Positions 3,270 through 57,161 of a DNA stretch of 64,000 nt are shown here, piece by piece (positions within the stretch are counted from its first letter, which is position 1; each line of letters starts with the position of its first letter). The position numbers were made by a program, and so were the translations under genes. Location of the stretch: the NCBI GenBank assembly GCA_019429005.1, contig JAHYJR010000001.1:168663-232662 (forward strand), in the 5' to 3' direction. The notes beneath the pieces were generated by a model. The model was not told where the DNA came from and made no database searches. It saw nothing but the letters and a program-made list of their open reading frames with translations. This DNA comes from Nanobdellati archaeon (lineage in GTDB: Archaea > EX4484-52 > GLR71).

Positions 3270-4199
3270 ATGGCAAAATATCTTGTAACAGGTGGCGCAG
3301 GTTTTATTGGTTCTAACATTGTTCGTGAACTTGTAAAACAAAAAGAGGAAGTTATTGTTATTGATAATCTTTTGACAGGGTATATTGAAAATATTTCAGA
3401 TATAATGGATAATATCAATTTTATTGAAGAGGATATAAGAGATTTTGATAAGATCAGACCACATTTTAACGGTGTTGATTATGTTCTTCATCAGGCAGCT
3501 TTACCTTCTGTACCAAAATCTTTATTAGACCCCATAAAATCAAACGATATAAATATTAATGGGACTTTGAATGTTCTTGAAGCATCAAAACAAGCGGGCG
3601 TAAAAAGATTAGTTTATGCTGCATCATCTTCAGCATATGGCGATACACCAACACTTCCAAAACGTGAGGATATGAAAATCAGTCCATTATCACCATACGC
3701 AGTATCTAAAGTTACAGGTGAACTTTATTCAAAAGTATATTCAAATGTTTTTGGTCTTGATACAGTCTCAATAAGATATTTCAACGTTTTTGGACCTAGA
3801 CAGGACCCAAATTCAGCATATGCAGCAGTAATTCCGAAATTCATAAAAAGCATGCTGAAAGGTGTTTCACCAACAGTATATGGTGATGGCACACAAACTA
3901 GGGATTTCACATTCATAAAAAATGTTGTGAATGCGAATATCTTAGCGACAAAAGTAAAAGAAAACCTGAATGGCGAGACTATAAATGTTGCATGTAATGA
4001 AAGAATAACATTAAATGAATTGGTCAATCTATTAAATAAACATCTTAATACGAATATAGAACCAGAATATGTTGATGAAAAAGCTGGAGATATCAAACAT
4101 TCTCTTGCAGATATCTCAAAAGCAAAACAATTGATTGGATATAGTCCAATCACATTTCTTGAAGAAGGTCTTAAAGAGACTATTAAATGGTATAATTAA
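3270..4199 (+). CDS. NAD-dependent UDP-GlcNAc(A) 4-epimerase (WbpP/TviC-like SDR)
   Basis: VTGGAGFIGS, HQAALPSVP, YAVSK (YxxxK), RYFNVFGPRQDPNSAYAAVIP; ATG 3270 after GTGA SD-like motif. Confidence 0.88.
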   Translation: MAKYLVTGGAGFIGSNIVRELVKQKEEVIVIDNLLTGYIENISDIMDNINFIEEDIRDFDKIRPHFNGVDYVLHQAALPSVPKSLLDPIKSNDININGTLNVLEASKQAGVKRLVYAASSSAYGDTPTLPKREDMKISPLSPYAVSKVTGELYSKVYSNVFGLDTVSIRYFNVFGPRQDPNSAYAAVIPKFIKSMLKGVSPTVYGDGTQTRDFTFIKNVVNANILATKVKENLNGETINVACNERITLNELVNLLNKHLNTNIEPEYVDEKAGDIKHSLADISKAKQLIGYSPITFLEEGLKETIKWYN

Positions 4200-5594: not shown

Positions 5595-6746
5595 ATGAAA
5601 AAGACAATTTTGTTAACAGGTTCAAAAGAATATCCTTTTGGCACAAATCAAGGTGACGATTCAATCCCTTCAGGAGGTATTGAAGTATACACTACTCGTT
5701 TTGTGAAAGAGTTTTCAAAATATAAAAATATAAATCTAAAGATAATCACAAGAAAATTCAAAGGAACAAAATCTTATGAAAAAAAAGACAACATTGAAAT
5801 CTATCGTGTCAGTTGGATAAGGGGTTTTTTCTTAAGGAATATTTCGTTTAATTTTTTCTCATTTTTAAAATATTTAACTTTAGACTTTGATATCCTCTTT
5901 GCGACAGGACCCTTTGCAGTTCTTTTTGCTAAATTAACAAAATTACTAAAAAACAAGAAACTCGTCGCAAGACCTGCAGGAATCAGTTGCAGCCAACCAC
6001 AATACAATTCAATCTTAAGATTTGTTTTAAAACAAATTGAAATCTTAGCTTACAGAAATACGGATTGTATAGTATTTTTATCAAACGAAGAAAAAATCCA
6101 GTTCACAAAAAAGCTAGGTATCAAACCCCAAAAAGATACGATTATCCCAACTGGAATAAACATTACAGATTATGAGAATATAATTTCTGCTAAGATAAAA
6201 GATGAATTTAATCTGAAAGGAAAAACCGTTATAACTTTTATTGGACGATTGATTGAAGTTAAAGGTTTAAAATATTTGATTGATGCTGTAAAAGAAATCA
6301 AAAACAAAGACATTATAATACTTCTTGTGGGAGACGGTCCAGAAAGAATTAAATTAGAATCTTATGTTAAAAAGCAAGATTTAAAAGATAAAATAATTTT
6401 CACAGGCCAGAGATCTGATATTCCCGAGTTACTCGCATCAACAGATATTTTCATAATGCCAAGTTTGTCAGAAGGTTTACCTGCATCACTTCTTGAAGCA
6501 ATGGCGTCAGAAATACCCTCCGTTGTAACCGATATTGGACTTCCTGTTGAAAACAGAAAGACTGCTTTAGTTGTGCCATCTAAAGATTCAAAAGTTTTAG
6601 CAGATGCAATAGATGAATTGATTAAAGATCCTAAATTAGCAAGTGTTATTGGTAAAAATGCAAAAGTGCATATAAAAAACAATTTTTCATGGGATTACGC
6701 AGTTTTAAGATATAAGAAATTATTTGATAAATTATATGATAGATAA
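5595..6746 (+). CDS. Glycosyltransferase family 4
   Basis: GGIE, FIGRLIEVKG, PSLSEGLPASLLEAMA. Confidence 0.9.
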   Translation: MKKTILLTGSKEYPFGTNQGDDSIPSGGIEVYTTRFVKEFSKYKNINLKIITRKFKGTKSYEKKDNIEIYRVSWIRGFFLRNISFNFFSFLKYLTLDFDILFATGPFAVLFAKLTKLLKNKKLVARPAGISCSQPQYNSILRFVLKQIEILAYRNTDCIVFLSNEEKIQFTKKLGIKPQKDTIIPTGINITDYENIISAKIKDEFNLKGKTVITFIGRLIEVKGLKYLIDAVKEIKNKDIIILLVGDGPERIKLESYVKKQDLKDKIIFTGQRSDIPELLASTDIFIMPSLSEGLPASLLEAMASEIPSVVTDIGLPVENRKTALVVPSKDSKVLADAIDELIKDPKLASVIGKNAKVHIKNNFSWDYAVLRYKKLFDKLYDR

Positions 6747-8917: not shown

Positions 8918-11362
8918 ATGCATATAGATTTTTTCCTGACAGATGCAGATTATATCGTAATAGATAATAAACCAGTTATACGGCTGTTTGGAAAAACCGA
9001 AAAAGGTGAATCTGTTATTGTTAAGGATGATTTATTTAAACCCTATTTGTATGTGATACCAATAATTAGCGTAAAAGAAGCAAAAAAAACTATAAGCGAC
9101 CTTGAATTATTTGATAAGAATAACGTACAAGTCATTATTGATTCTATTGAAATCGTGAAAAAAGAGGTTGACGGAAAAAGTCAAGAGATTTTAAAAATAT
9201 TCACACAAACTCCAAATGACATTCAAAGACTTAAGGACATTATAAAAGGTCTTGATTTTATAACGTCAATACGTGAGTTTGATATAGCGTTTCATAAACA
9301 GTATCTTTTTGATAACGGTTTTTCACCCATGACGTGGTTTTCAGTTGATGGTCATATTTTAGGAGAAGATTCTTATGCAGATTTTGTGGTTATTGCATCT
9401 AATATAAAACCTAAAATATCAAAATCAATTCCAAAATTAAAGATTATGGCATTTGACATCGAGACAATGCAAACTAAAGAGGATATAAAAGAAATCCTTA
9501 TGCTTTCTGTCGCAACAAATACAGGTCTTAAGAAAGTATTTTCTCACGGAAAATCAACTTTTGAACATTCAGAACCTGTAAAAGATGAAAAAGCGATTAT
9601 AGAACGTTTCAAAGAATGTATAATTACAGAAAAACCCGATTTCATTGTAGGCTATAATAGCGATTCTTTTGATTTCACAATAATAAAAGAACGTGCTGAC
9701 AAATACAGAATAAGATTAGATATTGGTATGGCTGGCCAACTTTTAACCATCCAGAAACGTGGCATGACATCCGCCGCCATAACAAAAGGTTTTGTGCATA
9801 TTGACTTGTATCAGTTTGTATTTAGGATAATGCGAACAACATTAAAATCCGAGACCTTAACTCTTGATAATGTCGCATCAGAACTAATTGGAGAAAAAAA
9901 GCTTGATGTTGATTTTGACAAGATGTATGATGACTGGAAAAATAAGAGAGATATGAAAGATTCTGCAAGATATAATCTTCATGACTCTGTTATAACTTTA
10001 AAGCTTGCAGAAAAGATATTAACAAACATTTCAGCATTGTCAAAGCTTACTGGTCTTGTACCCTTTGATTCTTCAAGGTCTACATATGGTCAATTTGTAG
10101 AATCTTTTGCGATGAAAAAGGCAGCACAACTTGACGTTGTTATACCTAACAGACCTCTTTCAGACGAAATTTCAAATAGGATGGAACAAGCACCAATCGA
10201 AGGTGCCTTTGTCGCAACACCTAGGGCCGGTCTTCACAAAAACATTGCAGTCTTTGATTTCCGGTCACTATATCCTTCAATCATCGTATCACATAACATA
10301 GATCCCTTCACATTCAATTGTTCATGTTGCAAAGGCAACCCTAAAAACAAAGTCCATGGTTTCTCATATAGTTTTTGCACAAAAAAGCATGGTTTTGTAC
10401 CAACTATTGTTGAAGAACTTGTTATGGGGCGATACGATATTAAAAAACGTATGAAATCTCTTGATATCCTATCTGAAGAATATTCACGTCTTGATATGGA
10501 TCAGTATGCAATGAAAACAGTATCAAATGCATTTTACGGTTATCTTGGTTTTGCTGGATCTCGTTGGTACAAGCGCGAATCTGCAGAGTCTGTCACAGCT
10601 TTTGGTAGGGATTATATACATAAAACTATAGCTATAGCCGAAAATTTAGGTTTTGATGTTTTATATGGTGATACAGATTCCTTATTTTTGAGGACTGATA
10701 AAAATATTGATGACATTTTAAACACCTTTTTACGTGATGTAAATAAAATTCTTCCGGGCATAATGGAACTTGAGTATGAAGGTCATTTTAAGTCAGGTCT
10801 TTTTGTGTCTAAAAAGACAGGTACTGGCGGCGCAAAAAAGAAATATGCTCTTTTAGATGATAAGGGAAATATGAAGATACGCGGTTTTGAGAAAGTTCGG
10901 CGCGACTGGTCACATCTTGCAAGAAATACGCAAGAGGTTGTTCTTCAGCTGGTATTATCTGATAAAAAGGATGAGGCTGTATCTCTTGTAAAAAAGACAA
11001 TATTAAATTTAAAGGGTGGCAAAGTTGATTTAGAATCTCTTATTATTTTCAATCAACTTACACGTGCAATTGAGAAATATACTCAAAAAGGACCTCATGT
11101 ATCTGCAGCAATCCGTGCACGTGTCGCCGGAATTGATATTGTACCGGGTATGGTTATTCCATATATTATCACAAAAGGTTCGGGGTCTATAAGTTCAAGA
11201 GCTGTATATGCACCTTTCGCGAAAAATTATGATCCCGATTATTACATAAATAAACAGATTATGCCTACAACACTTAGAATCCTTGAAGCTGTTGGTGTTT
11301 CAGAAGATGAGCTTTTAGGTAAATCAAAGCAGAGCGGACTTTTTTCTTTTTCAAAAAAATAA
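8918..11362 (+). CDS. polB: Family B DNA polymerase with 3'-5' exonuclease domain
   Basis: AFDIET, YNSDSFD, DFRSLYPSII, KTVSNAFYGY, YGDTDS, KKKYA; CSCC insert. Confidence 0.96.
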   Translation: MHIDFFLTDADYIVIDNKPVIRLFGKTEKGESVIVKDDLFKPYLYVIPIISVKEAKKTISDLELFDKNNVQVIIDSIEIVKKEVDGKSQEILKIFTQTPNDIQRLKDIIKGLDFITSIREFDIAFHKQYLFDNGFSPMTWFSVDGHILGEDSYADFVVIASNIKPKISKSIPKLKIMAFDIETMQTKEDIKEILMLSVATNTGLKKVFSHGKSTFEHSEPVKDEKAIIERFKECIITEKPDFIVGYNSDSFDFTIIKERADKYRIRLDIGMAGQLLTIQKRGMTSAAITKGFVHIDLYQFVFRIMRTTLKSETLTLDNVASELIGEKKLDVDFDKMYDDWKNKRDMKDSARYNLHDSVITLKLAEKILTNISALSKLTGLVPFDSSRSTYGQFVESFAMKKAAQLDVVIPNRPLSDEISNRMEQAPIEGAFVATPRAGLHKNIAVFDFRSLYPSIIVSHNIDPFTFNCSCCKGNPKNKVHGFSYSFCTKKHGFVPTIVEELVMGRYDIKKRMKSLDILSEEYSRLDMDQYAMKTVSNAFYGYLGFAGSRWYKRESAESVTAFGRDYIHKTIAIAENLGFDVLYGDTDSLFLRTDKNIDDILNTFLRDVNKILPGIMELEYEGHFKSGLFVSKKTGTGGAKKKYALLDDKGNMKIRGFEKVRRDWSHLARNTQEVVLQLVLSDKKDEAVSLVKKTILNLKGGKVDLESLIIFNQLTRAIEKYTQKGPHVSAAIRARVAGIDIVPGMVIPYIITKGSGSISSRAVYAPFAKNYDPDYYINKQIMPTTLRILEAVGVSEDELLGKSKQSGLFSFSKK

Positions 11363-30769: not shown

Positions 30770-31942
30770 TTAGAAATTTAAACAGTTAAATTCTGTTTTC
30801 AAATCTTTTATTTTTTGATTTAATACTGTGTCTGTTATGTCTTGACTGTACTTGATTATTTCCGTAATCTTTTTATTGAATTCTTTAATAATCTGGGTTA
30901 TTGGATGTTCTGCATATGTTTCTGTTTTGGTTGTTTTTGGTTCTAAATATGTGGGTTTTTGTGTTTCTTGTTCTTCTTCATCTTCGTTTGTATTTTTGAT
31001 TGTATATAGTTCTTCGTCATCGATTCGGTTAGTACCTATTCTATGTGCATTTTGTGTATTTGATGTTTTTGGGTCCTTATAGTGTATTTTTGGATGTGTG
31101 TCTGTTGTTGTAGTATTTATGTCTGTTATATATTCTGTATTTATATTTGTTTCTGGATTTTTAATCGCATTATATAGGTCTTCAGCATAAGTGTTTGTAA
31201 ATTTATTTTTATATTTTGTAATTGTAGTTTTAAAATCTTTTACAGATCTGATTGTGTCATTAAAACGTTTTCGTCCAAGGTTTATATTACCCTCTCCGAT
31301 TATATCATATAGGCTTTTTACAACCGTTTCATATTTTTCATAAAGTGTATTTGTTATGTTGTGTTTATTGTTTGCTTTTTGCACTATTGTTGCATCACCT
31401 TCTGCAATAAGTTTATTGAATTTTTTATCTATGTATGGGAGTATGTCTGCTTGTTGAGCATGTACTAATTCGTGTGTTTTTACAGAGTCTTTATATTTTG
31501 TATCTGTTATTGAGGGGTCTAAGTATATTGAGATATGATCTGGTTTTATTTCAGTACCATTTAGTTTATATTTAATCTCTGTAAGACCTACTGTATTTGA
31601 TGGCAATCTTGCAATTGTGTAATCTAATTCTGTAACGTCATATTTATGTTCTTTTGGTGTGTGTTTTAATGTTTTTAGGTATCTTTCAGCTAAGTCAAAT
31701 ATATTATAATCTGGTTTGTTTGTTGTTGTATATTGTTTTAATATCTCTGTATTGTATTCGGGTTGTGTGTCTGTAATATATTTAGGTTGTATGTCTGTGA
31801 TGTATTTTGGTTTTGTGTCTATTAAATATGGTGCTTGTTTGTTTGATATACCTAAATCTATTGTGTGTGTATCTGTTTTGTATTGTATTTGGGGAGCTAC
31901 TATATATGCTGATTTCAAATCACTTAAATACATAAATAACAC
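30770..31942 (-). CDS. Hypothetical protein with zincin HExxH motif
   Basis: THELVHAQQ then IAEGDAT; Thr/Lys/Asn-rich, degenerate 8-aa repeats near N-term. Confidence 0.55.
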   Translation of the reverse strand: MLFMYLSDLKSAYIVAPQIQYKTDTHTIDLGISNKQAPYLIDTKPKYITDIQPKYITDTQPEYNTEILKQYTTTNKPDYNIFDLAERYLKTLKHTPKEHKYDVTELDYTIARLPSNTVGLTEIKYKLNGTEIKPDHISIYLDPSITDTKYKDSVKTHELVHAQQADILPYIDKKFNKLIAEGDATIVQKANNKHNITNTLYEKYETVVKSLYDIIGEGNINLGRKRFNDTIRSVKDFKTTITKYKNKFTNTYAEDLYNAIKNPETNINTEYITDINTTTTDTHPKIHYKDPKTSNTQNAHRIGTNRIDDEELYTIKNTNEDEEEQETQKPTYLEPKTTKTETYAEHPITQIIKEFNKKITEIIKYSQDITDTVLNQKIKDLKTEFNCLNF

Positions 31943-32181
31943 CTGATTTTTGTTAAAGTTAAAATTAGTTATATATATTTCATATTTATTTAATTTTATA
32001 AATATTTGTTAAATATTTGTGCTAACTCTCACAAAAATATGCTAGTTTTTAGGGTATTTTTTAACAGATTAGCACGCTTGCTAACGTTTTATATCTAATA
32101 CTGTATTTTTATTATTTTTTTGTCTGTTTTTTTATTTGTGTGAGACCAAACCTTTATTTAAACTGCGTTCTAAGATTATGT

Positions 32182-33192
32182 ATGGTATTTAAGCATCTTG
32201 TCTTTTGGATTTCAGGAATTTTTGGAACTTCAAGGCCTGTGGTATACAAGGATGAGCTTGATGCTATTGTTGAAACTGTTGTGGGTGGGTTTTCAAAGAT
32301 TAATTTACGTATTTCTCAAAGTGATAATGAACTTAGTCTTTTGAGACAATCTGTGCTTCAGACACAACAAATACCAATTAGTGTGAATCTTCCTCAATTA
32401 GATAGCCTTATTATGGGTTATTCTACGATTTCAGAACGTGTTCATGTTGTTGAGTCTAATAAAGATGTTATTAGTAATAAATTATTTATTTTAGAATCGA
32501 CGCTCTCGTCTCGTATTGATTCTATTGTGTCTCAAAAACTAGAATCTATGGGCTCTAGTACCATTTCCGGTTCTTTAACAACACCTCAAATACTTGAATC
32601 TTTGCGTGCTCTAGAATCTTCTGTAAATCATATTAAATCTGAGTTAGTTACACGTTCAACTGTTGAATCTAACAACGTTACAACACCTAACAACAACGTT
32701 ACAACAGCAAATAACAATGTTACAACACCTAACAACAACGTTACAACACCTAATAACAACGTTACAACACCTAATAACAATGTTACAACACCTAATAAGA
32801 ACGTTACAACAGCAAATATGTCGTTTGATGATGATTTGACTGCACAAGACGATGTTTATGGGGGTTCCGTTGACTTTGGTCAGGGTGTACAAAACGTGTC
32901 TGGGCCAAAAGCTTTTGGTTTTAAACCTACTCGTACGGTTGTCACTTCGCGTAATATGAATAAAGTACTTGTTTCATCCTTAATACCTGTTTTTAATGAG
33001 CTTTTAAATGCTGAGAAATTTTTATCTTACTCTGAATTGTCTAAACGTCTAAATAAAAAAGAAGCAACGGCAAGAGCTTATGTTAATGCTTTGAAAACTT
33101 ATGGTGTTTCTATTGATGAACAGACTGTTTCTAACGGGCGTAAGCTTGTAAGGCTTGCAAAGGATGTTGTGCGTAAATATCTTATTCCTTAA
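32182..33192 (+). CDS. Coiled-coil + (VTTPNNN)7 repeat + C-terminal winged-helix protein; candidate initiator/origin-binding protein
   Basis: C-term LSYSELSKRLNKKEATARAYVNALKTYGVSIDEQ...RKLVRL is wHTH-like; ATG 32182 preferred to GTG 32140. Confidence 0.7.
   Translation: MVFKHLVFWISGIFGTSRPVVYKDELDAIVETVVGGFSKINLRISQSDNELSLLRQSVLQTQQIPISVNLPQLDSLIMGYSTISERVHVVESNKDVISNKLFILESTLSSRIDSIVSQKLESMGSSTISGSLTTPQILESLRALESSVNHIKSELVTRSTVESNNVTTPNNNVTTANNNVTTPNNNVTTPNNNVTTPNNNVTTPNKNVTTANMSFDDDLTAQDDVYGGSVDFGQGVQNVSGPKAFGFKPTRTVVTSRNMNKVLVSSLIPVFNELLNAEKFLSYSELSKRLNKKEATARAYVNALKTYGVSIDEQTVSNGRKLVRLAKDVVRKYLIP
32671..32817 (+). repeat. Intragenic 21-bp tandem repeat x7 with invariant GTTACAACA core
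   Basis: GTTACAACA at 32677, 32698, 32719, 32740, 32761, 32782, 32803. Confidence 0.97.
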
Positions 33193-35054
33193 GATGTAAT
33201 TCTTTATAGTTCCTGCTGTTATAACAGCAGGTTGTTATTCAATAACATTGTTATAACATTGTTATAACACTATTTAATCAATATCTATAGTCTTATTTAA
33301 TTATCTATACTGTTATAACACAGAATAACATTGTTATAACAGCTATAGAGACTACTGTTTTATATATCTTTCAACGTGTTTTTCATTAGTTAGGGGTTTA
33401 TTAGTCACTGAAGCTTCATTGAACTTTTTTTTGAATTCACTGAAACTTCACTGCACTATAAAACTAAAATATGTTTTTTGTGTGTGGGTGTTTTTATCGT
33501 TTTATAATCTTTTTGTTTTGCGTTTCCCTCTATTTCTATTGTTTTTTTCTGTTTTTTTGATCTGTTAGAATCTTTGGGTTTGTGTATGTGTGTGTGTGTA
33601 TGTGTTTGGATTTTGTTATTTGTGTTATTTTGGGTGGTGTCTATTAGTCTATGTTCTGTTATAATTTTCTACAAAAATAACCACTTTTTGTGAGGGTTAA
33701 ACTTTTGTTTATTTATGTTGTTTGAATTTAGCTTTCTTATGGTCTTTATTGGCTCTTTTAGGTCTCCGTTTGTCTCGATTGTGGCATTTATTTTGTTTAA
33801 CTCTATATTATTTAGTATTTCTTTGTCTTTTGCCCCCCCCCTTTAGTATTCTCATTTGATTTCGTTTATTTTTCATTTAGATTTCAGGATCTTTTGTTTT
33901 CATTTTTTTTTGTCTATTTTTTTCAATTACTATCAATTTTCAGAATATTTGTTTTTATCTCTATTTTTGGCTTTTTTTTGTTATAACTCTCACATTTATA
34001 TCTTATTTTATCCTAATTTGGGTTTATTTCCTGTTTTTATCTAATTTAAGCCTTTATCTGTAATCTAAATCTATCTCTATTGTTGTATTTTCGTTGTGTT
34101 TAAGTCTTTTTAGAAAAAAATAGTTACTTTTGTTCCTTAGTTATCCTTTAGTCTGACACATCTTAACGTTTATCATGTATATCTTAGCGTTTAGTACTTT
34201 GTTTTTGTATTCCTGGTATCTGTCTCTTATTGTTCTGCGTTTCTATTATATCTCTTGAATTCTGCTCTATATAGTACGTATTTTTTAATCGTATTATATT
34301 GCTATATTTACTGTATTTACTCTATATTGCTAGTGGTTTTTATGCTCTTTTTATTGTTTATTTTTGTATCCTTATTTAATCTTGCTAGCACACTCTTTGG
34401 GGGTATATTTGTTTAACACAGATTTTTTATTTTACTATTTTTTTATTTTGCAGACTTTATTCACACATTTCACATTTTATTTAAATAGCTTCTGAATCTC
34501 TTTCAAATTAGACCTTAACTCTCACATTTAGTGGCTCATTTTATTTGTCTTTCTTTTTGAATTTGGGGTTTTTAAGTGTTTATTGTGCTGTTTTAACGCA
34601 CTTTATACTATTTAGATTTTATTGTATTCTGCTGGTTTTTTAAAATGCTTTATATCTTTATAACACACCCGTTTTTAGGTTTTTTCCTTTCAAATGTGTA
34701 TATGCCTACTGTTAAGCTCTATTTCTGTTAAATTAGATCTTGTCCTATTATATTTAGATTGTCTTATAGTTTCATAGTTTTGATATATCTTTTAAATACT
34801 ACATATTATAAAACTCAATTTATACCAATAGACAAGCATATCTTTATATTGCTATATCACTAAATAAATGGTTGTTTTATTGTCTATTGTGCTTAATAAT
34901 ACAGCTTATTTGGAGACAATAGCCCAAAATATGCAATCTTAGGCAAGAACTTAGTTATTTTGGCCTTTTCACGGCACAAAAATTCACAATTTTTTCATAT
35001 TAGGTTTCTTTTAACTCTCTCTTTTTTTATTTTTTAAAATTCAGAACTTAGGCA
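33193..35054. other. ~1.9-kb non-coding, T-rich skewed region; candidate replication origin/terminus or partition locus
   Basis: No credible ORF; several motif families; flanked by convergent wHTH genes. Confidence 0.5.
33212..33341. repeat. Cluster of palindromic TGTTATAACA boxes
   Basis: Perfect copies at 33217, 33249, 33260, 33311, 33332; the first lies within 20-bp palindrome CCTGCTGTTATAACAGCAGG (33212-33231). Confidence 0.92.
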
Positions 35055-35462
35055 CTAGGGTGTATCAGATTCTGTATTATAGTTATATTTCTTTGCGCTA
35101 AACGCTTTTACTGCAAGCACTATGCTTTCAAAGAAACGTTCACATCTGTTTGATAGTTTATAATAATCACGTTCTTTTGTTTCTATTAGACCTATGCCAA
35201 TAAGTTTGTTTATCATGCTGTAATATGTTGTTTTGGATATATTGTGTTCCTTACAATATATATCCCAATTGGACCTATCAAAAACACCATTATTACCTTT
35301 TTGTCTTAGTTCTTTTAGGAATGTATAGGCATGATCTGGCAGCATTACATTTTTTGAACCTCTATATAACAGGCTCATAAGGCTTTCAAAATCAGGGGTT
35401 TCAAGCGGTTTTACAGATATTGTCGTGTGGTATCTTCTAGGTTTTTTTGTATCCATAATCAA
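35055..35462 (-). CDS. Winged-helix protein, hypothetical
   Basis: YCKEHNISKTTYYSMINKLIGIGLIETKERDYYKLS wHTH pattern. Confidence 0.7.
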   Translation of the reverse strand: MIMDTKKPRRYHTTISVKPLETPDFESLMSLLYRGSKNVMLPDHAYTFLKELRQKGNNGVFDRSNWDIYCKEHNISKTTYYSMINKLIGIGLIETKERDYYKLSNRCERFFESIVLAVKAFSAKKYNYNTESDTP

Positions 35463-35791
35463 TCACATTGATTTTTTGTTTTTTCTTGTTTTTATGTATT
35501 CCTATATTATGTAGAATGGATTGGTTTTATTTTTGTCTAGAAAAAATACACCATTCTGATATGTATCTGAATACACAACACTCGTACAAAACCCCCTTGA
35601 TTACTAGCCTAAACATGGCAAAAATAGCGAAGCTAGTATGTTTAGTTTAGTTATATTAGAATAATGTAGTGTTACTAAGGTATATACAAATAAAAGTATA
35701 ATGATATAGTAAGATATTTTATATCTTATATATTAGACTATCTAAATACATATATATCTATATTACAATGTATATACTGTACAATGTATAA

Positions 35792-35960
35792 GTTAGGCAC
35801 CAATATTGTTTTTGTTAGGCACTAAAAAGTAGGGTTGTTAGGCACTATTTTTGTTTTTTTAGGTTATAAAATTCATTTAGATAATACGTATTTTTGTATG
35901 CTATCTGTAATTTAATGTGTATTGTTTATGTATGTTTGAATAATATGTAGTTAGGCACTA
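35792..35960. repeat. Direct repeats GTTAGGCAC(TA)
   Basis: Copies at 35792, 35814, 35837, 35950; also TTAGGCACTA at 35048 and GTTAGGCACTA at 42834. Confidence 0.85.
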
Positions 35961-36041: not shown

Positions 36042-36326
36042 TCACTTAAGCTTTTTCATCACTTTTTCAAAATCTTTAGCATATTCAGAACCTTTTTCAG
36101 TCAGTTTTATGTATTTTATACGACCTACTTTTTCAAAAGAAACAATACCTTTTTTCATGAAAAGCTCAAGTATCTTTACTGTATGTGAATATGTGCAATC
36201 TGTTATTTTTGCAAGTGTTGATGCATATACACTTTCATTCTTAATACGTAATGCTAATAGTATTTGAACGGGTTTTGCGTGTAAAAAGAGATCACATAAT
36301 TCTTCATTTTCTTTAACCATATTCAA
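36042..36326 (-). CDS. Small winged-helix (MarR/ArsR-like) protein
   Basis: YASTLAKITDCTYSHTVKILELFMKKGIVSFEKVGRIKYIKLTEKG. Confidence 0.85.
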   Translation of the reverse strand: MNMVKENEELCDLFLHAKPVQILLALRIKNESVYASTLAKITDCTYSHTVKILELFMKKGIVSFEKVGRIKYIKLTEKGSEYAKDFEKVMKKLK

Positions 36327-38209: not shown

Positions 38210-38282
38210 TAGTCCCGCCAGGATTCGAACCTGGGTCTAGAGATCCAGAGTCTCTTATGCTTGGCCTCTACATTACGGGACT
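38210..38282 (-). tRNA. tRNA-Gln (anticodon CUG), intronless, CCA not encoded
   Basis: AGTCCCG...AGAGA-CT(CTG)GA-TCTCT...GGTTCGAATCC...CGGGACT-A cloverleaf; A1-U72 pair. Confidence 0.95.
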
Positions 38283-56211: not shown

Positions 56212-56387
56212 AGAAAAATATTGTATTGTTTAGTATATATATTTTATTATAGTTTATCTAAAAGAATTCATCAGGTGCGGTTTAATCTTATATACTTTTA
56301 ATGTTAAATAATTTACATCAGTATTAGTTAAATATTTAAATCATAAGCGTACATTAATTTTATATTAATAAATCGGTGTTTTATTTT

Positions 56388-57161
56388 ATGGGTCGTGTAA
56401 TCTGTCTTGTATCGGGTAAAGGTGGTGTTGGAAAAACTACACTTGCGTCCAATATAGCTATGGCATTAAATAATTTTGGAAAAAATACAGTTGTCATTGA
56501 TACAAACCTTACAACACCAAATTTAGGTTTTCATCTTGGTGTACCACTTTATCCTAAAACCTTTCATGATGTTTTGAATGGTACAGCTACTTATGAAGAA
56601 GCAACTTATACACATCCTTCAGGTCTTAGAGTTATGCCTGCTGGAATATCTTTAAGAGATCTTAAAAATACAAATTTATCACAGATGGATAACGTTGTTC
56701 TCGATATTGCAGATAACCATGACATTGTAATTCTTGACGGTGCTGCAGGTCTTGGAAAAGAAGGTAAGGCGAGTTTAAGTGCAGCAGATGAAGCTCTTAT
56801 TGTAACAAATCCACAGCTTCCATCAGTTACAGATGCTCTTAAGACAATAAAAATCGCAGAAGAGCTTGGTACAAAAATACTTGGTGTGGCTTTAAATCGT
56901 TCAAAAAATCATCCTTCCGAATTATCACAAAATGAAGTTGAAGCACTTTTAGGTTATCCGGTTATTTCAATTATACCTGATGAGAATCATATTATAGACA
57001 GTCTTGCAGCAAAGACGCCTATTGTGGCATTCAAACCAAACACACGTTCAGCTCAAGAGATAAAGAAACTCGCTGCATGTTTAATCGGTATTGATTATGA
57101 CATCCCTGTTCAGAAAGAATATGGATTGTTTTCTAGAATTTTTGGTTTTCTTAAAGGTTAA
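56388..57161 (+). CDS. minD: Archaeal MinD/ParA-family ATPase
   Basis: SGKGGVGKTT, PNLGFHLG, DGAAGLG, SVTDALK. Confidence 0.9.
   Translation: MGRVICLVSGKGGVGKTTLASNIAMALNNFGKNTVVIDTNLTTPNLGFHLGVPLYPKTFHDVLNGTATYEEATYTHPSGLRVMPAGISLRDLKNTNLSQMDNVVLDIADNHDIVILDGAAGLGKEGKASLSAADEALIVTNPQLPSVTDALKTIKIAEELGTKILGVALNRSKNHPSELSQNEVEALLGYPVISIIPDENHIIDSLAAKTPIVAFKPNTRSAQEIKKLAACLIGIDYDIPVQKEYGLFSRIFGFLKG

What the first reader, a model, noticed from the sequence alone, without database searches (positions are those of the whole stretch)
32182..33341. Winged-helix gene carrying its own putative binding sites in its coding sequence, echoed by a palindrome array just downstream
Seen: the (VTTPNNN)7 linker holds GTTACAACA at an exact 21-bp period (about two helical turns). 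The core is invariant while neighbouring codons vary. Within 150 bp after the stop, the near-identical palindrome TGTTATAACA occurs five times, two of them 11 bp apart. Coding AATAACAATGTTACAACA matches non-coding AATAACATTGTTATAACA at 16/18. The protein has an N-terminal coiled coil and a C-terminal wHTH. Known: lambda O carries its ori iterons inside its own gene, and plasmid Rep and Sulfolobus WhiP initiators are wHTH proteins next to repeats. Inference: the repeat is selected as DNA, and this is an initiator/iteron (or ParB/parS-like) module independent of Orc1/Cdc6.
Basis: partly seen in the sequence, partly recalled or inferred. Interest (0 to 1): 0.9.

Follow-up and report, generated by a model that had tools for sequence, protein, structure and literature searches.

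The report
Archaeal DNA-binder with private site array
A small archaeon carries an uncharacterised DNA-binding protein gene followed by a one-of-a-kind row of short palindromes, which very probably are that protein's docking sites and even run into the gene's own coding sequence, so the pair looks like a chromosome-anchoring (centromere-like) device and not a replication origin.

Summary
GTTACAACA occurs 7 times at an exact 21-bp period inside the gene, and TGTTATAACA 5 times within 150 bp after the stop. This is the only such cluster in the 1.08-Mb genome.

The gene (336 aa) has a hydrophobic N-terminal motif, a coiled coil, a repeat linker and a C-terminal winged helix. It has no Pfam or NCBIfam family.

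Homologues occur in four families of the same DPANN-type order. Each is followed by a genome-unique array, with a different box sequence in each family. In most loci examined the array lies between convergent gene ends, so it is not at a promoter.

In the window's family, the extended box AACAWTGTTNNAACA read in frame gives N-x-V-x-T. The invariant residues fall on the fixed box positions. The first Asn uses the minority codon AAC in 28 of 29 cases. This supports selection at the DNA level.

The initiator reading is not supported. The Orc1/Cdc6 gene, the GC-skew minimum and AT-rich tandem repeats lie 93 kb away.

My best reading is a centromere-like or locus-anchoring protein/site module (SopB-sopC-like layout, no ParA). 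Two related genera have a Xer recombinase and a dif-like site inside the box zone; this genome has neither.

The scan has noted similar coiled-coil/wHTH-plus-array modules in other DPANN genomes. I did not test whether they are homologous.

The parts
32182..33192 (+). Gene for the 336-aa protein P0001 (stop TAA at 33190-33192). It has an N-terminal hydrophobic motif, a coiled coil, a repeat linker and a C-terminal wHTH.
   Evidence: ORF and translation. Homologues start at the same M-V-F. No Pfam, NCBIfam or PHROG family.
32182..32226 (+). Codons 1-15: conserved N-terminal hydrophobic/amphipathic motif. It reads MVFKHLVFWISGIFG here and MVFxWLVNKIAGIFKK in relatives. The corresponding motif in the distant families is MGLFDxLFGxKK.
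   Evidence: Alignments A1, A2 and A6. Mean hydrophobicity 0.4-0.75 and helical moment 0.34-0.53 in most f1-type members. A membrane or partner-binding role is inferred, not shown.
32670..32818 (+). Seven 21-bp units encoding N-N-V-T-T-P/A-N. Each carries the box core GTTACAAC; 2 units have the full box TGTTACAACA and 5 have CGTTACAACA.
32944..33189 (+). C-terminal winged-helix DNA-binding domain (about residues 255-336). This is the most conserved part of the family and includes EATARAYVN and NGRKLVRLAK.
   Evidence: hhalign to the distant family: probability 97.3%, E 2.6e-11 over 97 columns.
33212..33341 (.). Downstream array of five perfect TGTTATAACA palindromes (33217, 33249, 33260, 33311, 33332). 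It includes a 20-bp perfect palindrome at 33212-33231 and an 11-bp-phased doublet at 33249-33269.
33193..35054 (.). ORF-less stretch with 50% T on the + strand, between the convergent wHTH gene and the gene at 35055-35462 (-). In relatives the equivalent stretch (0.87-1.3 kb) carries further box doublets.
   Evidence: No Rfam match at the gathering threshold in this stretch; one chance-level match at E 0.16.
32024..32033 (+). Copy of the conserved motif (T)AACTCTCACA, 158 nt upstream of the ATG. Further copies are at 33985 and 34517, and an inverted, diverged copy at 33673-33699.
   Evidence: Its role is unknown.

Best explanation
This is a chromosomal protein/cis-site module.

The protein binds through its C-terminal winged helix, probably as a dimer or higher oligomer held by the coiled coil. 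Its target is the 10-bp palindrome TGTTNNAACA (extended form AACAWTGTTNNAACA, often in doublets 11 bp apart).

These boxes form one array per genome. It begins in the 3' third of the protein's own coding sequence and continues after the stop codon. The linker between coiled coil and wHTH tolerates the boxes. Read in frame they give N-x-V-x-T, and in this genome they have expanded to seven 21-bp units.

The nucleoprotein complex most likely acts structurally. It marks and anchors this one locus, centromere-like, with the conserved N-terminal hydrophobic motif holding on to the membrane or to a partner. It does not act as a promoter operator or as the replication origin.

Shown: uniqueness of the array, its conservation next to the gene, co-variation of box and protein, and codon-level constraint.

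Inferred: binding itself, oligomeric state, the role of the N-terminal motif, and the cellular function.

My odds: protein binds these boxes 0.8; coding repeat constrained as DNA 0.7; structural/centromere-like role as opposed to regulator or origin 0.5.
For: (1) Uniqueness: this is the only cluster of boxes in 1.08 Mb.

(2) Conservation in family f1:
- The gene is found in 7 of 9 other genomes of the family.
- Every locus with downstream DNA has TGTTNNAACA boxes in the 3' CDS and after the stop.
- Box pairs within 30 bp occur genome-wide only at this locus in G025 (6 of 6), G023 (3 of 3) and G031 (6 of 6, one of them about 1.9 kb downstream). The reversed-pattern control gave 0.

(3) Co-variation: homologous proteins of three more families have other arrays directly after the gene.
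- f2: GATAGTATCGGTTA. Hits at the gene in G001 3 of 3, G004 2 of 2, G006 3 of 5, G007 5 of 6.
- f8: TTCGACA / TGTCGAAATTTTCGACA. G039 5 of 5, G041 8 of 8.
- f7: TTAATCGATTAATCG. G037 4 of 4, G038 4 of 4.
- The recognition-helix region differs between the families.

(4) The array is not at a promoter. It lies between convergent gene ends in the window, g2, g3, f7 and f8.

(5) The module is chromosomal and old.
- Its neighbours are housekeeping genes.
- GatE is upstream in g1 and g2.
- SerS is divergent upstream in both f2 and f8.
- There are no phage-family hits.

(6) DNA-level constraint in the CDS.
- The first Asn of N-x-V-x-[TAS] is AAC in 28 of 29 cases. The other Asn of the same genes are 31 AAC: 157 AAT, and AAC is 19% genome-wide.
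- Only 6.4% of 808 V-x-T tripeptides in other long ORFs are full boxes. Yet G025 has three different full boxes (V-G-T, V-A-T, V-I-T) within 60 bp of its CDS, and G031 two full boxes plus one core.

(7) Layout as in classical centromeres. In G027 the array continues as 4.4 tandem 127-bp units, each with a box doublet.
Against: No binding, localisation or phenotype data exist; everything is comparative.

No ParA-type partner is adjacent. The nearest ParA/Mrp-like gene is 23 kb away.

The N-terminal motif is only assumed to bind membrane. Its helical moment is modest, and low in some members.

The repeat units in this genome are recent tandem copies, so their identical cores are not seven independent observations.

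L002 and L007 are identical in the 870 bp compared after the gene, and the g3 loci are close kin. The codon count therefore rests on about four lineages.

In g3 the commonest coding motif is GTTACCACA, one mismatch from the box.

The window's own R-T-V-V-T is not a box.

G026 has no box pair within 30 bp at its locus, and one elsewhere.

In one f2 genome the next gene (NUDIX) is co-directional, so a promoter role there is not excluded.

The family was not detected in 19 of 42 genomes of the phylum, and the f6 matches are weak.
Confidence: 0.5

Rival explanations
1. Secondary replication origin. The wHTH protein is an Orc1-independent initiator, the boxes are its iterons, and the T-rich ORF-less DNA is the unwinding zone.
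For: Iteron-like repeats lie in and next to the gene. An AT-rich 41-bp stretch lies between boxes 3 and 4 (33270-33310). A long ORF-less stretch follows. There is a small local maximum or turn of cumulative GC skew and a gene-strand switch near 33-35 kb.
Against: The Orc1/Cdc6 gene, the skew minimum and the AT-rich 24-bp x7 and 17-bp x10 tandem repeats lie together 93 kb away.

The local skew feature here is a weak maximum, not a minimum.

The ORF-less DNA is 27% GC against 29-30% for the genome, so it is not notably AT-rich.

The protein has a coiled coil and an N-terminal hydrophobic motif. It has no helicase-loading, AAA+ or Rep domain.

In f7 and f8 the array fills a 270-400 bp gap between convergent genes, with no long AT-rich zone.
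Confidence: 0.1
2. Ordinary transcription regulator. The boxes are operators through which the protein controls its own mRNA (a roadblock inside the 3' CDS) or an unannotated transcript in the ORF-less DNA.
For: The wHTH is of the Lrp/AsnC / HTH_11 type used by regulators. Sites inside the CDS could block elongation and give feedback. The conserved motif TAACTCTCACATTT-N8-10-ATTTT on the + strand in the ORF-less DNA could be a promoter-like element. Earlier notes of this scan read similar DPANN modules as autoregulators (untested here).
Against: There are no boxes in the 300 bp upstream of the gene in the window.

The arrays lie between convergent 3' ends in f1, f7 and f8, where no promoter is expected.

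There is one locus per genome carrying 5 to more than 15 sites, and no dispersed regulon.

The coiled coil and conserved N-terminal motif are not needed for a simple repressor.

The ORF-less DNA has no Rfam match at the gathering threshold; the single match at E 0.16 is chance-level.
Confidence: 0.2
3. Organiser of the dimer-resolution (dif) zone, or an SMC boundary or loading site. The complex marks the region where Xer acts, or where SMC is stalled or loaded. MatP-matS and the TrmBL2/dif boundary of Thermococcus are the analogues.
For: In g2 and g3 a Xer-like recombinase gene lies convergent 0.9-1.3 kb after the wHTH gene.

In g3 a dif-like 11-6-11 site lies about 70 bp upstream of that recombinase gene (L001:9153, L002:6063, L003:3844). 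Another box cluster lies 60-90 bp beyond it.

In T. kodakarensis, dif lies in a ~1.9-kb intergenic region between convergent genes, and a wHTH protein plus Smc form a boundary there (PMC11840125, abstract and passages read).

G000 has an SMC gene.
Against: G000 has no tyrosine recombinase and no dif-like site in its 93.6%-complete assembly, yet keeps the gene and the array.

In the three f2 genomes searched for recombinases (G001, G006, G007), these lie on other contigs.

The g3 genomes have two recombinases each, so which one is the chromosomal Xer is open.

The locus is only 93 kb from the likely origin on the same contig.
Confidence: 0.15
4. The coding repeat is selected only as a peptide (a linker motif N-N-V-T-T). 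Its likeness to the downstream palindromes is a by-product of AT-rich codon usage and recent slippage.
For: N, V and T are invariant in the protein alignment, including homologues with no DNA in hand. GTT and ACA are the commonest Val and Thr codons (50% and 59%). The seven units are tandem copies. In g3 the motif is GTTACCACA, not a perfect box.
Against: The rare AAC codon is held at the first Asn in 28 of 29 motif copies across about four lineages that are 29-38% identical in protein.

The residue between V and T varies (T, A, V, I, G), exactly where the box has NN.

Coding and non-coding copies share the 15-nt extended form within each locus. L002 has coding AACATTGTTGCAACA and non-coding AACGTTGTTGCAACA. 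L001 has coding AACAATGTTA(C/T)CACA and non-coding AACAATGTTGTAACA.
Confidence: 0.12

Closest known systems
Plasmid partition centromeres placed right after the binding-protein gene (F SopB-sopC, P1 ParB-parS) and the parS inside the Bacillus subtilis spo0J coding sequence (recalled from the literature, not read here)
   Same: A cluster of short inverted repeats sits directly downstream of, or inside, the gene of the protein that binds it. There is one such locus per replicon. Tandem repeat units each carry a palindrome (127-bp units in G027).
   Different: The protein has no ParB/Sulfiredoxin domain. No ParA ATPase gene is adjacent. It has an N-terminal hydrophobic motif plus a coiled coil, and it is archaeal and chromosomal.
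HTH-plus-coiled-coil DNA anchors: RacA-ram and Noc of B. subtilis, KfrA of IncP plasmids, StbA-stbS of R388. These are recalled; I saw the KfrA paper PMC7821693 only as a search listing. The StbA analogy came from an earlier scan note.
   Same: A site-specific DNA-binding domain is joined to a long coiled coil and/or an amphipathic membrane-binding end. Clustered cognate sites are present. The role is structural or positional and needs no dedicated motor encoded beside it.
   Different: The domain order is reversed relative to KfrA and RacA (HTH at the C-terminus here). No sequence similarity was detected. There is a single compact array, not dispersed sites.
TrmBL2/dif boundary of Thermococcus kodakarensis (PMC11840125; abstract and passages read) and MatP-matS of E. 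coli (recalled)
   Same: A large ORF-less region lies between convergent genes. A wHTH protein is present. In genera g2 and g3 a Xer recombinase gene lies inside the box zone, and in g3 a dif-like site as well.
   Different: TrmBL2 binds with little sequence specificity at many loci; here the palindromes are specific and occur at one locus. The window's genome has no Xer or dif. There is no TrmB or MatP homology.
Initiator/iteron modules: lambda O with ori inside its gene, plasmid Rep proteins, and Sulfolobus WhiP
   Same: Repeats bound by the gene product lie inside or next to its own gene. A winged-helix DNA-binding domain is present.
   Different: There is no Rep, O, Cdt1 or AAA+ similarity. 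The likely oriC is elsewhere. The coiled coil and N-terminal motif are unexplained by an initiator role.

Membership tests
ParB/parS partition systems | ParB/Sulfiredoxin (ParBc) N-terminal CTPase domain in the site-binding protein | tested here: not met
   Pfam scan of P0001 at E<=0.01 lists only HV_Gp350_C-term (low-complexity) and HTH_11. NCBIfam gives nothing.
ParB/parS partition systems | Cognate ParA-type ATPase encoded beside it | tested here: not met
   The neighbours are GatD, an HD protein, GatE, an orphan gene and small wHTH genes. The only ParA/Mrp-like gene of the window is at 56376-57161.
ParB/parS partition systems | Cluster of inverted-repeat sites next to or inside the binder's gene, unique in the replicon | tested here: met
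Plasmid Rep / lambda O initiators with iterons | Homology to a Rep or O initiator family | tested here: not met
   No Pfam, NCBIfam or PHROG match.
Plasmid Rep / lambda O initiators with iterons | Site of replication initiation (skew switch, AT-rich unwinding element, origin activity) | tested here: inconclusive
   The skew minimum and AT-rich tandem repeats lie beside Orc1, 93 kb away. At this locus there is only a weak skew maximum. Origin activity itself is not testable here.
Orc1/Cdc6 or WhiP (Cdt1-like) archaeal initiators | AAA+ domain plus C-terminal winged helix (Orc1), or tandem winged helices of Cdt1 type | tested here: not met
   TIGR02928 matches elsewhere in the genome (C11:107910-108995, C8:96396-97349), not this gene. 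P0001 has no AAA+ hit.
Lrp/AsnC (FFRP) regulators | N-terminal HTH_24/AsnC-type wHTH | tested here: inconclusive
   The family profile matches the HTH of two Lrp/AsnC-type chains at E 2e-4 over 37 residues. PF13412 is precomputed on two homologues. The domain is C-terminal here.
Lrp/AsnC (FFRP) regulators | C-terminal RAM / AsnC_trans_reg ligand-binding domain | tested here: not met
   It is absent from the Pfam result. A coiled coil precedes the HTH instead.
KfrA-type proteins | N-terminal KfrA DNA-binding head followed by a long coiled-coil tail | tested here: not met
   No KfrA_N hit, and the domain order is reversed.
MatP/matS or Xer/dif-zone organisers | Sites flanking a dif site, with a Xer recombinase in the genome | tested here: not met
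   For the window's genome there is no PF00589 match, no tblastn match to the relatives' recombinase and no dif-like site. It is met in g3 relatives. In g2 only the recombinase is seen, because the contig ends inside that gene.

The most novel reading that the evidence does not exclude
This order of DPANN archaea uses a one-protein, ParA-independent centromere. A coiled-coil wHTH protein coats a private array next to its own gene. Through its N-terminal hydrophobic motif it ties that locus to the membrane, the division machinery or SMC, and so provides chromosome anchoring, segregation or SMC loading in cells that lack ParB. In one family the centromere has invaded the protein's own coding sequence and now dictates part of its amino-acid sequence.
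Probability: 0.3. Interest if true: 0.85.

Novelty: new variant of a known kind. Interest (0 to 1): 0.7.

Why it matters
How archaea, and the tiny DPANN cells in particular, position and segregate their chromosomes, and how archaeal SMC is loaded or stopped, are open questions. This work gives a concrete, testable candidate.

The candidate is an unnamed protein family with about 14 sequence clusters for the window's type and 19 for the f2 type. Its predicted DNA target can be read directly from each genome and differs between families. That is a ready-made specificity panel for EMSA or DAP-seq.

It is also a clear natural case of a cis-acting DNA element overlapping a coding sequence and shaping the encoded peptide (N-x-V-x-T repeats). 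This bears on how one reads low-complexity peptide repeats in small genomes.

Tried and rejected
No fold and no fold search could be made.
- Complex prediction (self-association of the protein) was not available.

Searches that found nothing:
- Scans of viral contigs and two scans of metagenome contigs found no relative. DNA is therefore in hand for only part of the family.
- The look-up of sequencing runs listed no run and no RNA holder, so no read-depth or expression check was possible.
- Rfam gave nothing in the ORF-less DNA except a chance-level mir-33 hit at E 0.16.
- A PDB profile search with the f2+f8 alignment found nothing below E 0.04. A recalled likeness of the N-terminal motif to the amphipathic N-termini of ESCRT-III/PspA-type proteins therefore has no support here.
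- Two paper searches found no paper on this family.

Readings considered and dropped:
- A decayed recombinase gene in the ORF-less DNA: tblastn with four relatives' recombinases found nothing, and stop-to-stop frames are short on both strands.
- An integrated mobile element. No PHROG hits except two generic regulator families on the small wHTH genes. The neighbours are housekeeping genes and synteny is conserved across genera. No integrase in G000.
- The terminus reading from skew. The contig-wide profile is dominated by a change at about 110 kb, and the feature at the locus is weak.
Full report
**1.

- The 9-mer GTTACAACA starts at 32677 and recurs every 21 bp, seven times. The window has 9 copies against 0.87 expected, and none of 100 shuffles reaches 9.
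- TRF reports 7.1 copies of a 21-bp unit at 32670-32818.
- The core never varies, while unit positions 3, 6, 16-18 and 21 do.
- After the stop codon (33190-33192) the perfect palindrome TGTTATAACA starts at 33217, 33249, 33260, 33311 and 33332. Expected 0.31; none of 100 shuffles reaches 5.
- Two copies are 11 bp apart. The first lies in a 20-bp perfect palindrome at 33212-33231.

The window is G000:C11:168663-232662 of a 1.08-Mb, 29-30% GC genome in 15 contigs. Genome-wide counts:

| Motif | Genome-wide | At this locus |
|---|---|---|
| TGTTATAACA | 10 | 5 |
| TGTTNNAACA | 88 | the only cluster of 3 or more per 200 bp |
| GTTNNAAC core | 367 | coding repeat (7) and downstream array (5); the only other cluster is a trivial triplet on C2 |
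| 11-bp doublet | 1 | 1 |

**2. The protein**

- The gene (32182-33192, +) encodes 336 residues. The ATG at 32182 is the right start, because all homologues begin M-V-F.
- Pfam gives only a sub-threshold HTH_11 hit at residues 273-312 and a low-complexity hit. NCBIfam and PHROGs give nothing.
- A profile of 22 family members matches the HTH of Lrp/AsnC-type chains in the PDB at E 2e-4. Otherwise it matches only coiled-coil proteins.
- The family is small. There were 15 proteins, including the query itself, in the 5.8-billion-protein search. In the exhaustive search there were 14 at E<=1e-10, plus a few weaker true members among low-complexity hits.
- All named members are 'hypothetical protein' from DPANN-type MAGs.
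- Conserved parts: an N-terminal hydrophobic motif (MVFxWLVNKIAGIFKK), about 150 residues of heptad-rich sequence, two or three copies of N-x-V-T/A-T, and a strongly conserved C-terminal domain (EATARAYVN, NGRKLVRLAK).
- I could not obtain a predicted structure or a self-association test.

**3. The gene and the array belong together**

Within the phylum as held (42 genomes, all of one order), the gene is found in 7 of 9 other genomes of the window's family, f1. Contigs often break inside the repeat.

Every f1 locus with downstream DNA shows TGTTNNAACA boxes with central AT, GT/AC, TC, GC, CC or TT. They lie in the last third of the coding sequence, at +17 to +145 after the stop, and again at +300 to +650. 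They are often in doublets 11 bp apart. In G027 the array continues as 4.4 tandem 127-bp units, each carrying a doublet.

I searched four whole relatives for two boxes within 30 bp. The reversed-pattern control gave 0 in all four.

| Genome | Box pairs found | At the wHTH locus |
|---|---|---|
| G025 | 6 | 6 |
| G023 | 3 | 3 |
| G031 | 6 | 6 (one about 1.9 kb downstream) |
| G026 | 1 | 0 (the pair is elsewhere; its locus has boxes spaced further apart) |

**4. Independent support from distant homologues**

A combined profile finds clear relatives of 207-244 residues in three further families. They have an N-terminal MGLFDxLFGxKK-type motif, a coiled coil and a C-terminal wHTH. hhalign between the f1 and f2 profiles gives probability 97.3% and E 2.6e-11 over 97 columns.

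None of these proteins has the N-x-V-x-T motif, and none of their box hits lies in the coding sequence. Each has its own array directly after its stop codon. In the table, hits are counts of the search pattern in the whole genome.

| Family | Box sequence | Hits lying at the gene |
|---|---|---|
| f2 | GTAACCGATAGTATCGGTTAC-type palindromes | G001 3 of 3; G004 2 of 2; G006 3 of 5; G007 5 of 6 |
| f8 | TTCGACA / TGTCGAAATTTTCGACA | G039 5 of 5; G041 8 of 8; G040 1 at the contig end after the gene, plus 3 on another contig (C9) |
| f7 | TTAATCGATTAATCG | G037 4 of 4; G038 4 of 4 |

The recognition-helix region differs between the families. So four families have four box sequences, and in each the array is essentially private to the gene's locus. 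I take this as strong comparative evidence that the protein binds the array (odds 0.8). No binding experiment exists.

**5. Is the coding repeat selected as DNA?**

The non-coding boxes have an extended form AACAWTGTTNNAACA. The window has AACATTGTTATAACA three times, and L001 has AACAATGTTGTAACA twice. Read in the gene's frame this is AAC-AWT-GTT-NNA-ACA, which translates to N-[N/I]-V-x-T.

- The residues invariant in the alignment (N192, V194, T196) are the ones fixed by the box.
- Across the motif copies, the residue that varies (T, A, V, I, G) sits on the NN of the box.
- Synonymous-site test: the first Asn of the motif is AAC in 28 of 29 copies. By locus: window 6/6, L001 2/2, L002 4/4, L003 4/4, L004 3/4, L007 4/4, L011 4/4, L012 1/1.
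- The other Asn codons of the same genes are 31 AAC against 157 AAT. AAC is 19% of Asn codons in 459 long ORFs of G000.
- In those ORFs only 6.4% of 808 V-x-T tripeptides are full boxes. Yet G025 carries three different full boxes (V-G-T, V-A-T, V-I-T) within 60 bp of coding sequence, and G031 two full boxes plus one core.

Caveats:
- L002 and L007 are identical in the 870 bp compared after the gene, and the g3 loci are close kin. About four lineages are independent.
- The seven units of the window are recent tandem copies.
- The commonest g3 motif, GTTACCACA, misses the box by one base.
- The window's R-T-V-V-T is not a box.

I put DNA-level constraint at 0.7.

**6. It is not the replication origin**

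- The best Orc1/Cdc6 gene is at C11:107910-108995.
- The cumulative GC skew of the contig has its minimum at about 110 kb.
- The intergenic DNA beside that gene holds AT-rich tandem repeats of 24 bp x7 and 17 bp x10.
- The wHTH locus lies 93 kb from there and shows only a weak local skew maximum.
- Five relatives each have two Orc1 paralogues, none on the wHTH contig.
- The ORF-less DNA after the array is T-skewed (50% T) but not especially AT-rich (27% GC).

**7. It is not a promoter operator in most loci**

The array lies between convergent gene ends in several settings:
- the window, where the next gene is 35055-35462 on the minus strand;
- g2 and g3, convergent with a recombinase gene;
- f7, convergent with a DUF373 gene;
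- f8, convergent with a Trp/Tyr-tRNA synthetase gene.

In the window there is no box in the 300 bp upstream of the gene. In one f2 genome the next gene is co-directional, so a promoter role there cannot be excluded.

**8. It is chromosomal and old**

- GatE lies just upstream in g1 and g2.
- The L11-L1-L10-L12 operon is 2 kb away in g3 and 11 kb away in the window.
- SerS is the divergent upstream neighbour in both f2 and f8.
- There are no phage-family hits. G000 has no integrase.

**9. The Xer/dif lead**

- In g2 and g3 a Xer-like tyrosine recombinase gene lies convergent 0.9-1.3 kb downstream.
- In g3 a dif-like 11-6-11 inverted repeat lies about 70 bp upstream of that gene. A further box cluster lies 60-90 bp beyond it.
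- This recalls the T. kodakarensis dif, which lies in a ~1.9-kb intergenic region between convergent genes, where a wHTH protein and Smc form a domain boundary (PMC11840125; abstract and passages read).
- Against it: G000 has no recombinase and no dif-like site. In the three f2 genomes searched (G001, G006, G007) the recombinases are on other contigs, and g3 genomes have two recombinases each.
- G000 does encode an SMC.

I keep this as a rival and a sub-variant of the structural reading.

**10. Mechanism proposed**

Coiled-coil dimers or oligomers bind the palindromes through the C-terminal wHTH. They coat one locus, which starts inside the gene's own 3' end. The conserved N-terminal hydrophobic motif connects this complex to the membrane or to a partner.

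The layout is that of classical centromeres placed after the binder's gene (SopB-sopC, ParB-parS; the parS inside spo0J; all recalled). The protein is not a ParB, and no ParA is adjacent.

The role of the N-terminal motif, the oligomeric state and the cellular function are inferences.

**11. Earlier notes of this scan**

- One note describes the same ORF-free T-skewed stretch (e1-702626).
- Three others describe coiled-coil/wHTH genes beside repeat arrays in other DPANN genomes, read there as autoregulators or origin-proximal regulators.
- I did not test whether those proteins are homologous. A sequence look-up with an f2 member found nothing.
- Two paper searches found no description of this family. 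Supplementary files were not consulted.

Noticed in passing
window 33193-35054: A 1.86-kb stretch with no credible ORF on either strand, 50% T on the + strand and 27% GC. Relatives have an equivalent stretch of 0.87-1.3 kb with 51-53% T after the same gene. There is no Rfam match at the gathering threshold.
   Followed up: partly
window 32024, 33985, 34517 (+); inverted diverged copy at 33673-33699; also G000:C8:115294, 116261, 116895, 117568: The motif (T)AACTCTCACATTT-N8-10-ATTTT occurs only 7 times in the genome, always on the + strand. It is conserved in 2-3 copies in the ORF-less DNA of every f1 relative examined (L001, L002, L003, L007, L012). One copy lies just past the 3' end of the recombinase gene. 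Its function is unknown (promoter-like or a factor site).
   Followed up: partly
window 35046-35960, with genes 35055-35462 (-) and 36042-36326 (-): This looks like a second protein/site pair. GTTAGGCAC occurs 5 times in the genome, 4 of them at 35792-35950 between two small wHTH genes (weak TrmB / HTH_27 hits). This block, up to tRNA-Gln (38210-38282), has no counterpart in the relatives' loci.
   Followed up: partly
L001:8233-9084 and 9153-9180; L002:5156-5995 and 6063-6090; L003:2937-3776 and 3844-3871; L012:3151-3639: A Xer-like tyrosine recombinase gene lies convergent to the wHTH gene in genera g2 and g3. In g3 a dif-like 11-6-11 site (TGTCGCATAA-N6-TTATGCGAC) lies about 70 bp upstream of that gene. 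G000 has no tyrosine recombinase at all in a 93.6%-complete assembly.
   Followed up: partly
G000:C11:105500-112500 (L020): Likely oriC. The Orc1/Cdc6 gene (L020:2342-3559, -) has an AT-rich upstream region holding 7 copies of a 24-bp tandem repeat (3958-4197) and 10 copies of a 17-bp repeat (6096-6321). It sits at the cumulative GC-skew minimum of the contig.
   Followed up: partly
window 30770-31942 (-): Orphan 390-aa ORF between GatE and the wHTH gene. It has K/T-rich tandem peptide repeats (QPKYITD-type) and an HExxH-like motif (HELVH). It has no family match and is absent at this position in g2.
   Followed up: no
L002 (JAIVYO010000031.1): This contig is labelled as part of a Campylobacterales bacterium MAG. 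Over the 870 bp compared after the wHTH gene it is 100% identical to the archaeal locus L007 (G031), and its wHTH ORF has the same length. It carries archaeal ribosomal protein genes, so it is probably mis-binned.
   Followed up: no
G000:C8:10000-60000: About 50 kb is covered wall to wall by minus-strand ORFs of at least 120 aa (about 10,000 of 10,000 bases coding in five consecutive 10-kb bins). This suggests giant gene(s).
   Followed up: no
L019/L040 (G027:C214), L043 (G025:C15:9878-10381): Further weakly related coiled-coil proteins occur in the same genomes. The G027 one (304 aa) ends in a different wHTH. These genomes may hold paralogous modules; I did not look at their flanks.
   Followed up: no
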